DNA of 64,000 bases, taken from positions 1-64,000 of the forward strand of contig NW_024705183.1 in the NCBI RefSeq assembly GCF_018977255.1. Reading direction: 5' to 3'. The notes under the pieces are model-generated. The model had not been told where the DNA came from and ran no database searches. It worked only from the letters and a program-made list of their open reading frames with translations. This DNA comes from Callorhinchus milii (Eukaryota). This document shows positions 55,513 through 57,318 of this stretch, in pieces. A program made the position numbers and the translations under genes. Position 1 is the stretch's first letter, and each line of letters opens with the position of its first letter.

Positions 55513-56415
55513 ATGGCTGAGGCGGAGGTCGTTGCTGCCATCGCTCCCGCTCCGCAAACCGCCGCCGTCGATGCTGTCGCCGCCACCACCTCATCGACGA
55601 CGGCGGCGGCGGCTGTTGCGGCGGGAGGTGGAGGTGGTGGTGGAGGTGGAGCCGCACAGGCGGCCCCGCCGCCGGTCACCAAGAAGAAGAGCGCGTACCG
55701 TCAGCAGAAGATGGGCGCCGAGCACGTGATGGAAGCGGTGACGGCCGCGAAGGAGCGGCAAGGGGCGGGTTTGGGAGCCGCCGCCAAGAAGAGCGCAGTA
55801 ACGGCTTCGGTGTCCGAGGGGGAGAAGAGCCGAGGAGAGGGAGGAGGCGGCGGCGGCGGAGGAGGAAGGACCGTGACGAAGACCATACCGGGCCGCGGAT
55901 TGATGACACAACCGACGGCGGCTGCGGGAGGAGGAGGAGGAGGAGGCAGCGCCGTCGCGGTGACCGTCGCGGCATCAGCCTCGCAAACGGCTCCCAAACC
56001 CCAGGCGCCGGAGGGGATCGAGGTCAAGGAAACCGCCGGTACCGCCGTCGTCTCCGCCGCCACCGCCGCTTTGGTGACGGGAGGCGCCACCGCCACGATG
56101 GCCGGCAAGAAGCGGGCGGCGGCGGCGGTGAAGAAACCCGCCGTCAAGAAGAAGAAGCCGAAACAGGCGCCGGGGAAGGCGGCGGCGGCGGCGCACAGGA
56201 ACGCCAAGAAGCTGAAGGCGGCCAAGAAAGCGGCGGGAGTCGCGGTCTCGGCCGATGCCGCCGCCGCTGCAGCTGCTTCGGCCGCGGCGGCGACTACTAA
56301 CCGGAGCCCCAAGAAGGGCAGAGCGACGGCGGTCCGGGCCAAGAAGACGGGAGCCAGGCGGCAGGTGGCGAGCAAGTCGGTGGGGCGTAAGGGGAGGGCG
56401 CCCCGGAGGCGCTGA
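55513..56415 (+). CDS. H1-derived protein with degenerate globular domain, copy 2 (300 aa)
   Basis: Open frame near-identical to 13132-14052; stem-loop GGCTCTTTTCAGAGCC at 56504-56519. Confidence 0.8.
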   Translation: MAEAEVVAAIAPAPQTAAVDAVAATTSSTTAAAAVAAGGGGGGGGGAAQAAPPPVTKKKSAYRQQKMGAEHVMEAVTAAKERQGAGLGAAAKKSAVTASVSEGEKSRGEGGGGGGGGGRTVTKTIPGRGLMTQPTAAAGGGGGGGSAVAVTVAASASQTAPKPQAPEGIEVKETAGTAVVSAATAALVTGGATATMAGKKRAAAAVKKPAVKKKKPKQAPGKAAAAAHRNAKKLKAAKKAAGVAVSADAAAAAAASAAAATTNRSPKKGRATAVRAKKTGARRQVASKSVGRKGRAPRRR

Positions 56416-57318
56416 TGATAAAGAGAACAGTCACAATTAATTAACATAAAGTGAAATTAAAATGAATTATTTTCACTTCTTTCCCCTCTTCCCCCCAAAA
56501 AAAGGCTCTTTTCAGAGCCACCGACTGATCTCTCGAAAAAAAGCTGACGGTTCCCCGATGTGTCGTCCCTCGGGGGCGGAGGGGAAAAAAAGAGGGGGTT
56601 TTGTGGCTAAATCGGGAGTTTCCTGAAAGGATGAAGAATAAATGATAAATAATAAGAATAACATTCCCGGTGTGTGACCCGGAGCCTCATCGCGTCGTCG
56701 AGACGTCTCACAGCGCTTCGCGGGATACACTGTAGAGTGTAGTGACTGTGTGTTGTGGACGATGTACGATATACGGTGTGTATATATATATATATGTATA
56801 TATACGTGTGTGTGTGTGATATACATTTCCTCTCCTCGGGAGACCTTTGTCATTGGAAACGTGTGGAACATAAAGACATAATATATATATATATATATTT
56901 ATTTTTGATCGTTTTTACCCCCAAACAAACAGACTGAGAGGTCATCAAACTCAGCATTTTCTTGTCAAACCAACAAAACAAAGCAAAAAAAAACTTTTAA
57001 TTCATATAATTCCGTCGACGGCAACAACCCCCCCCCTCCCCCTCCCCTCCCGCCCTCTCCCCGGTCCCTGCAAGAGATGGTGTGAAGATGGTCTCCGCCC
57101 CCTCCCGGGCAATGGCGGTCGCTTCCTATTGGCCGCGGGTCACGGACCAATCCCGACGCGCCGTTCGCCCTCGGCGAACAGCCAATAGAAAAGCGCGGAC
57201 GCCCGCCCATCCCTCATTAGCATAACCCGCCCCTATATAAGTCCCGGACCGGATCGGACCGAGCAGTCAGTCGGTCAAGTTCTCGGCGTTCGTCGTCTCG
57301 TCCGCCCCGAAGCCCCAC

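What the first reader, a model, noticed from the sequence alone, without database searches (positions are those of the whole stretch)
55513..56519. H1-derived ~300-aa protein that has lost the winged helix but keeps an open frame and a perfect stem-loop (two copies)
Seen: helix 1 and the KER.G motif are recognisable, but the GYDV..NN helix 3 and the GASGSFKL wing are replaced by poly-Gly and Ala/Thr/Val tracts. The Lys-rich C-tail with SPKK remains. Both copies (300 and 306 aa) are open and all length differences are in frame. Inference: a largely disordered, linker-histone-derived basic protein under S-phase-type 3' control, possibly a new class of chromatin or condensate protein. Caveat: triplet-repeat slippage preserves frame without selection, and GC-rich DNA has few stop codons.
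Basis: partly seen in the sequence, partly recalled or inferred. Interest (0 to 1): 0.7.

Follow-up and report, generated by a model that had tools for sequence, protein, structure and literature searches.

The report
Linker histone gene with ruined core
A cartilaginous fish carries two intact copies of a linker-histone gene whose DNA-clamping core has eroded and is predicted not to fold, while the reading frame and the histone-type RNA end signal are kept, so it likely makes a floppy, positively charged chromatin protein, possibly for germ cells, which is untested.

Summary
Both frames are open (300 and 306 aa) and have no Pfam hit, whereas 4 neighbouring H1 genes do. The helix-1 region matches a chondrichthyan H1 subfamily at 20.4 bits, against a shuffle maximum of 8.4. 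The rest of the winged helix is eroded in place and split by two poly-Gly runs, not cleanly replaced. AlphaFold given 18 H1 relatives builds one helix. Of 14 stem-loops in the window, only these two and H4's pass Rfam's cut-off. Neutral decay deep enough to ruin the core would rarely keep the frame (P ≤ 0.05), so the gene was likely under selection while losing its core. Present function is weaker: the copies differ by 5 replacement and 1 silent change, and expression rests on one contig from a run only guessed to be RNA. No orthologue was found. Best reading: a disordered H1 derivative acting through its basic tail, likely in the germ line. Core-less H1s are known in protists. This scan earlier noted a similar family in sharks and rays; orthology is untested.

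The parts
55513..56415 (+). Copy A: intronless 300-aa H1-derived ORF (Ala 29%, Gly 15%, Lys 11%; pI 11.4)
55675..55788 (+). Retained basic patch, helix 1 and KERQG (residues 55-92); matches the chondrichthyan H1 subfamily of P0001, P0005-P0008, P0014, P0016
   Evidence: the only helix in the alignment-based model is residues 70-82
55789..55962 (+). Eroded back half of the globular domain (residues 93-150) with two poly-Gly insertions; the YDV and SFR motifs of the paralogues are lost
55800..55814 (+). Possible out-of-frame relic of the paralogues' NGYDV codons (reads NGFGV in the -1 frame); suggestive only
   Evidence: 43 of 20000 shuffles, block chosen after looking; protein-level gain not significant, 25 of 150
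56107..56412 (+). Lys/Ala-rich C-terminal tail (residues 199-300) with one SPKK
56499..56543 (+). Histone 3' stem-loop (56504-56519, 88 nt after the stop) and purine-rich downstream element
55325..55449 (+). Candidate promoter: motif at 55325-55337 kept exactly in both copies inside a diverged flank, and a TTTAA box at -68
   Evidence: function inferred
13132..14052 (-). Copy B: 306-aa ORF in an inverted duplicate
13001..13045 (-). Stem-loop and downstream element of copy B, identical to copy A's
30996..31739 (+). Context: intact H1 of the subfamily the target resembles most (P0001)

Best explanation
This is a linker-histone H1 gene, present in two open copies with a histone-type 3' stem-loop, whose winged-helix core has eroded and is predicted not to fold; it likely makes a mostly disordered basic protein that binds DNA through its Lys/Ala tail rather than at the nucleosome dyad, most likely in germ cells. 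Shown: frame, stem-loop, H1 ancestry of the helix-1 region, loss of the core motifs. Inferred: (1) selection kept frame, tail and 3' signal while the core decayed; (2) the mRNA is ended by the stem-loop pathway in dividing cells; (3) without the globular domain the tail would coat or bridge linker DNA by charge, loosely, with SPKK as a possible phosphorylation switch; (4) it serves the variant histone set around it, which is likely germ-line.
For: Ancestry: an HMM of 7 subfamily members scores the target 20.4 bits. 0 of 997 reported global and 0 of 1000 local shuffles reach that; the maximum is 8.4. The other two H1 groups score 9.4 and 9.9. BLASTP to P0016 gives E 1e-07, 30% over 114 columns. 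Core loss: 22-27% identity to four local H1 cores that are 68-75% identical to P0001; 11 of their 39 invariant positions are kept. There is no Pfam, PDB-sequence or Foldseek hit. AlphaFold pLDDT is 46-47, with and without an alignment. Constraint: in substitution-only neutral simulations, P(ATG kept and no stop) is 0.0005-0.05 at 0.4 substitutions per site and 0-0.03 at 0.5 over 9 settings, and 0.5 still leaves 38-41% identity, more than observed. Markov sequences of the same composition are stop-free in 1.0-1.3% of 5000. Lys codons remain 28 AAG to 4 AAA, and the CDS has no base run of 6 or more while the flanks have several. The 3' signal outranks those of most intact histone genes here. An upstream motif is kept exactly in a diverged flank. 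In copy B's duplicate the neighbouring H2B gene was truncated while this gene stayed whole. Contigs of 3 runs from one other study keep the frame. One 186-nt contig from a probable RNA run lies in the CDS. Context: variant H2B, H3, H4 and Arg-rich H1 genes surround it, apart from the genome's main H1 genes on other contigs.
Against: No orthologue was found, although the searches were insensitive to a 20-bit relationship. The copies differ by 5 replacement changes and 1 silent change, so there is no sign of purifying selection on the protein sequence (Fisher P = 1). The low CDS divergence (6 of 894 against 19 of 641 in the flanks, P = 0.0007) also holds at silent sites, which points to gene conversion rather than selection. 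All indels are triplet slippage. The RNA evidence is one contig, the run type is a guess and the tissue is unknown. Neither exact protein is in the 15-billion collection. Several neighbours look broken (H1 at 51075, H2B at 12442, HSP70), so the cluster does hold decaying genes. Germ-line use rests on context and analogy only. No AlphaFold positive control on an intact neighbour was run, and hhalign gave only 30% probability.
Confidence: 0.55

Rival explanations
1. The gene worked while its core eroded, but is now under relaxed selection or recently dead; gene conversion between the two inverted copies and triplet slippage keep both looking intact.
For: 5 replacement against 1 silent difference; silent sites as conserved as replacement sites; broken neighbours in the cluster; no annotated protein; almost no RNA cover.
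Against: Both copies and contigs from 3 runs of another study keep the frame. The 3' signal is identical in both copies and passes Rfam. The adjacent H2B copy broke while this gene did not.
Confidence: 0.2
2. It is a functional core-less H1 derivative, but somatic or embryonic: a general S-phase chromatin spacer or chaperone-like protein, not germ-line.
For: A stem-loop normally marks S-phase expression (PMC3834806 passage). The tail is Lys/Ala-rich like somatic H1, not Arg-rich like protamine-like proteins (Lys 10.7%, Arg 5.7%).
Against: It lies in the variant cluster, not among the main H1 genes. Divergent H1s in other animals are often testis proteins (PMC6069787 and PMC5011920 passages).
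Confidence: 0.15
3. It is a long-dead pseudogene whose frame and stem-loop survive by chance because the DNA is GC-rich and slips in triplets.
For: GC 68-77% at all codon positions; one antisense frame is also open for 248 aa; all indels lie in triplet runs.
Against: Neutral simulations give P <= 0.05 for the frame alone, ignoring frameshifts. Only 9 of 68 non-coding indels in another local duplication are multiples of 3. The two other sense frames carry 10 and 3 stops. The stem-loop and downstream element would also have to survive.
Confidence: 0.05
4. The globular domain is only very divergent and still folds, with the poly-Gly runs looped out, perhaps upon binding DNA.
For: Remnants stay in order. 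The single-sequence model has a helix at 60-83 and a hairpin at 121-133, at low confidence.
Against: Core hydrophobic and motif positions are lost and a proline falls in the helix-3 region. An alignment with 18 H1 relatives yields only helix 70-82. No Foldseek match.
Confidence: 0.05

Closest known systems
Chondrichthyan 'histone H1-like' subfamily (P0005 Pristis, P0006-P0008 skates, P0014 Narcine, P0016 Hypanus, and P0001 in this window; Pfam PF00538)
   Same: Basic patch, YRxxK[F/M]G and helix-1/KER segment; cluster context.
   Different: They keep a Pfam-positive winged helix and Arg-rich tails. The target has lost the core and has a Lys/Ala tail. P0001 shows an AATAAA and no stem-loop match.
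Vertebrate replication-dependent H1 (chicken GH1, PDB 1ghc; human H1.1-H1.4)
   Same: Intronless gene, 3' stem-loop, Ala/Pro N-tail, Lys/Ala C-tail with SPKK, slippage-prone tails (PMC5400378 passages).
   Different: The defining globular domain is not detected. The neighbour P0001 hits 1ghc at E 1e-22; the target hits no H1 structure at E <= 10.
Tetrahymena macronuclear H1
   Same: H1-type basic protein with no globular domain (PMC3834806 passage); best functional analogue.
   Different: A protist protein, not compared here by sequence. The target is a vertebrate-type H1 that lost the domain secondarily and still carries its remains.
Mammalian spermatid H1s HILS1 (H1.9) and H1T2 (H1.7); protamine-like (PL) sperm proteins
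   Same: Divergent H1 relatives of germ cells; HILS1 has a diverged core and condenses DNA poorly (PMC6069787 passages). Mussel PL-IV is a basic product cut from a PL-II/PL-IV precursor (PMC5550673 passage).
   Different: HILS1 keeps 43-49% core similarity and PL proteins keep a winged helix with Arg-rich tails (PMC13148410 passage). The target loses the core in the gene itself and is not Arg-rich.
Core-dismantled H1 family of sharks and rays noted by this scan (e1-9117406, e1-10284226, e1-9360883)
   Same: By the notes: front half kept, helix 3 and wing lost, gene signals intact.
   Different: Look-ups by sequence found no shared words. One note reports an acidic block, which the target lacks. 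Orthology is untested.

Membership tests
Linker histone H1/H5 (PF00538) | Winged-helix globular domain detectable by profile | tested here: not met
   No Pfam hit at E <= 10 for either copy; 4 neighbours score 59-68 bits; absent from the 25 genome matches.
Linker histone H1/H5 (PF00538) | Three-helix plus hairpin fold | tested here: not met
   Prediction only: one helix, pLDDT 47 with an H1 alignment; no Foldseek match; no positive control run.
Linker histone H1/H5 (PF00538) | Descent from H1 | tested here: met
   20.4 bits against shuffle maximum 8.4; BLASTP E 1e-07; hhalign E 0.0005, probability 30%.
Linker histone H1/H5 (PF00538) | Lys/Ala-rich disordered C-tail with S/TPXK | tested here: met
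   33 K+R in 102 residues, one SPKK; low pLDDT.
Linker histone H1/H5 (PF00538) | Nucleosome dyad binding, chromatosome protection | not testable with these tools
   Needs a biochemical assay.
Replication-dependent histone gene | Intronless, clustered, 3' stem-loop plus downstream element | tested here: met
Replication-dependent histone gene | Downstream element pairs with the organism's U7 snRNA | tested here: inconclusive
   U7 was not found in the genome and the control also found nothing.
Replication-dependent histone gene | Non-polyadenylated mRNA made in S phase | tested here: inconclusive
   One contig from a run guessed to be RNA; contigs cannot show ends or timing.
Protamine-like (PL-type) sperm protein | Winged helix plus Arg/Lys-rich protamine-like tail | tested here: not met
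   No winged helix; Arg 5.7%, Ala 29%; definition from PMC13148410 passage.
Protamine-like (PL-type) sperm protein | Present in spermatid or sperm chromatin | not testable with these tools
   No tissue data.
Elasmobranch core-less H1 family (scan notes) | Orthology by sequence or position | tested here: inconclusive
   No shared words. The cluster does share MHC class III markers (LSM2 exon, HSP70) with the location given in note e1-8661907.

The most novel reading that the evidence does not exclude
The gene is the chimaera member of an ancient, stem-loop-controlled, core-less H1 lineage shared with sharks and rays, part of an MHC-linked germ-line histone set. Vertebrates would then have kept, since the chimaera-shark split, a linker histone that works by its disordered tail alone: a natural test of what H1 does without dyad binding.
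Probability: 0.25. Interest if true: 0.75.

Novelty: new variant of a known kind. Interest (0 to 1): 0.52.

Why it matters
The globular domain is the most conserved part of vertebrate H1 (93-100% identity among mammalian H1.1-H1.5, PMC5400378 passage). A vertebrate gene that discards it yet keeps its tail, frame and histone 3' signal separates two jobs of H1: placing at the nucleosome and neutralising linker DNA. It can be compared directly with an intact paralogue from the same cluster. It also shows a route from H1 to core-less basic proteins by decay in the gene, as opposed to cleavage of a precursor. If it proves unexpressed, it is only a late stage of histone gene death.

Tried and rejected
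Homologue searches with the target found nothing: whole protein (7985 candidates), residues 54-136 (2697 candidates), 1.84 billion representatives, metagenome contigs. These cannot detect a 20-bit relationship and only lengths 165-525 were searched, so they do not show absence. The Atlas could not read the target; its answer for P0016 describes that protein only. A maximum-likelihood tree of the core put the target on a very long branch next to the outgroup with weak support, so it is uninformative. A compensated frameshift inside the core is suggested at DNA level but not supported at protein level; kept as a hint only. The upstream 13-mer occurs 15 times in the genome against 8 for the reversed control, and none of the 12 sites outside this window precedes a histone-like gene; rejected as a genome-wide motif. 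U7 search was blank, control included. Higher identity at codon positions 1-2 than 3 was not used, because a protein-guided alignment produces it. Folding energy of the 3' end is not unusual (z -1.06); Rfam is the relevant test. Two papers recalled by DOI were not held and are not used. Paper searches listed nothing that, by title and abstract start, describes this gene or a core-less H1 of cartilaginous fish; subscription papers such as Saperas et al. 1997 (seen only as a reference) were not readable. No supplements were read. No complex prediction was run.

Full report
Setting. The window is bases 1-64000 of a 64,591-base contig of a 992-Mb genome. It is a cluster of histone genes with an intronless HSP70 and LSM2 exons. 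The best protein relatives of its H1 genes are from rays and sharks. The scan's earlier notes call the genome elephant shark; I did not check that label. The genome's main H1 genes lie on other contigs.

Observation. Copy A (55513-56415, +) encodes 300 aa and copy B (13132-14052, -) 306 aa. No third copy was found. Neither has a Pfam hit at E <= 10, while H1 genes at 30996, 33069, 36384 and 51075 score 59-68 bits. The copies differ by 6 substitutions in 894 aligned bases and 10 indels, all of 3 or 9 bases and all in triplet runs. A 16-nt stem-loop lies 88 nt past the stop. Of 14 stem-loop pattern matches in the window, Rfam's gathering score is passed by 3: H4's and these two. The purine-rich element behind the loop resembles those behind the H3 genes of the same window.

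Ancestry. A search with the intact neighbour P0001 returned 16 proteins of 118 candidates, among them a ray subfamily with the pattern KKKRRxYRHKKFG..AE[QH]IMKAVA.TKERR. The target reads KKKSAYRQQKMGAEHVMEAVTAAKERQG. An HMM from 7 members of that subfamily scores it 20.4 bits; no shuffle exceeds 8.4 (997 reported global, 1000 local). HMMs of the other chondrichthyan group and of canonical-type H1s give 9.4 and 9.9. BLASTP against P0016 gives E 1e-07. Profile-profile comparison is weak (probability 30%), and a tree is uninformative.

State of the core. Over 67 core columns the target is 22-27% identical to four local H1s; P0001 is 68-75% identical to the other three. It keeps 11 of their 39 invariant residues. 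The YDV and SFR motifs are gone and two poly-Gly runs are inserted. The remains are still in order: the in-frame profile score is 38 against 17.9 +/- 6.5, with 0 of 150 shuffles reaching it. So the core decayed in place. A 15-base relic of the NGYDV codons may sit in the -1 frame at 55800-55814 (43 of 20000 shuffles, chosen after looking), which would mean a compensated frameshift; the protein-level test does not support it (25 of 150). AlphaFold gives pLDDT 46 alone and 47 with 18 H1 relatives in the alignment, building only helix 70-82. Foldseek and PDB sequence searches find no H1, whereas P0001 hits chicken GH1 at E 1e-22. I ran no AlphaFold control on an intact H1.

Is the frame more than chance? 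Other tests go against chance. Markov sequences of the same composition are stop-free in about 1% of 5000 trials; the other two sense frames hold 10 and 3 stops. Neutral substitution from three starting genes at three GC equilibria keeps ATG and frame with P 0.0005-0.05 at 0.4 substitutions per site and 0-0.03 at 0.5, a distance that still leaves 38-41% identity. These runs ignore frameshifts, and only 9 of 68 non-coding indels in another local duplication are multiples of 3. The stem-loop, the downstream element and an exact 16-base upstream block in an otherwise diverged flank would also have to survive. I conclude that the gene was under selection for a translated, correctly ended mRNA while its core eroded.

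Is it alive now? Less certain. For: in copy B's duplicate the neighbouring H2B gene is cut short while this gene is whole. Contigs from runs X2, X4 and X5 (one study; they cover intergenic DNA) carry only 3- or 6-base indels in the listed CDS rows. Their spans across the two masked repeats differ by +9 and -6, +3 and +3, and -3 bases (X5 spans one repeat), computed from table 8; 4 indel rows were not shown. Depth on the gene is about 16 against 4-9 on the flanks, in keeping with two collapsed copies, though the tool warns that this is no copy number. Run X1, guessed to be RNA, has one 186-nt contig at 56079-56267 and no cover of unique flanks other than 54250-54386; this is a weak hint of unknown tissue. 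Against: 5 of the 6 substitutions change a residue (three of the six lie beside an indel and depend on the alignment), dN/dS cannot be told from 1, and the low CDS divergence includes silent sites, which suggests gene conversion. Neither exact protein is in the public collection. No orthologue was found, but these searches cannot see a 20-bit link.

Mechanism. The protein has four uncharged or weakly charged Ala/Gly-rich stretches and one strongly basic tail: 33 of its 49 K+R are in residues 199-300. In H1 the globular domain directs the tail to the nucleosome and the tail folds chromatin (PMC6069787 passage). Without the domain, the tail would likely bind linker or free DNA by charge, without a fixed site, and the long neutral part would act as a spacer. 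The kept helix-1 segment may be a partner-binding or import element; that is a guess. The stem-loop implies synthesis in dividing cells, but not somatic ones: male-only stem-loop H2B variants exist in Hydractinia (PMC5011920 passages). A germ-line role is inferred from the variant cluster and from testis H1 variants elsewhere. Nothing here tests condensate formation.

Comparison and novelty. It works like a core-less H1 such as Tetrahymena's (PMC3834806 passage). It descends from H1 but fails the family's defining domain test, so it should be called H1-derived. It is not a protamine-like protein by the definition in PMC13148410 (passage). Ten paper searches listed no description of this gene (see Tried and rejected); all papers were seen as listings or passages only. 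This scan noted similar core-dismantled H1 genes in sharks and rays; I could not test orthology, so the loss is either shared and ancient or repeated. P0016 of Hypanus also shows wear in helix 3 and the wing, which suggests that this subfamily tolerates erosion.

Verdict. Real feature, new variant of a known kind. Best explanation 0.55; relaxed or recently dead 0.20; somatic role 0.15; chance pseudogene 0.05; still folded 0.05. Interest 0.52, rising to 0.75 if an ancient shared lineage is confirmed (probability 0.25).

Noticed in passing
window 54341-54829 (-): A second eroded H1 derivative, head-to-head with the target: 162 aa, 22% Arg, keeps RKALSVGGYD but no helix 1 or wing, no Pfam hit, no stem-loop match, AATAAA about 300 nt downstream; run X1 has contigs at 54250-54386.
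   Followed up: partly
window 49756-51075 (-): H1 with an intact core whose frame runs through its own stem-loop. A Lys-rich tail continues in another frame from about 50420 and stops near 49970, so the gene is frameshifted or misassembled.
   Followed up: partly
window 36384-37564 (+): H1 whose stem-loop lies 430 nt past the stop and whose tail ends in acidic and Gly runs; a frameshift in the tail is possible.
   Followed up: partly
window 30996-32010 (+): Intact H1 (P0001) with no stem-loop match and an AATAAA about 260 nt past the stop; likely the orthologue of the ray subfamily P0005-P0008 and possibly polyadenylated.
   Followed up: partly
window 12113-12442 (-): H2B copy cut short by a deletion that joins the coding region to the middle of the stem-loop; still annotated as a 108-aa protein.
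   Followed up: partly
window 1420-1890, 39567-40019 (+), 61954-62418 (-): H2B variant with a long Ala/Ser/Gly N-tail in three copies; the copy at 1420 has two single-base losses and reads out of frame.
   Followed up: no
window 52658-53176 (-): Very divergent H2A-like ORF ending in a His run, with no Pfam histone hit.
   Followed up: no
window 24616-26206 (-), 35151-35462 (+): H3 and H4 genes with a few substitutions against solved histones (H3 A-to-V and Q-to-H, H4 A-to-S).
   Followed up: partly
window 18114-19993 (+); 7186-7269 and about 45425-45580 (-): Intronless HSP70 whose frame shifts near codon 475, and duplicated LSM2 exons; both are MHC class III markers.
   Followed up: partly
window 15-10047 against 38155-47299; 61766-63878: Large direct and inverted segmental duplications at 92-96% identity, with a 21-base-like G-rich minisatellite at about 7900-9430 and 46145-46650.
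   Followed up: no
L019, L021-L023, L026, L028, L029: Seven truncated or frameshifted copies of the main-type H1 on small contigs of the own genome.
   Followed up: no
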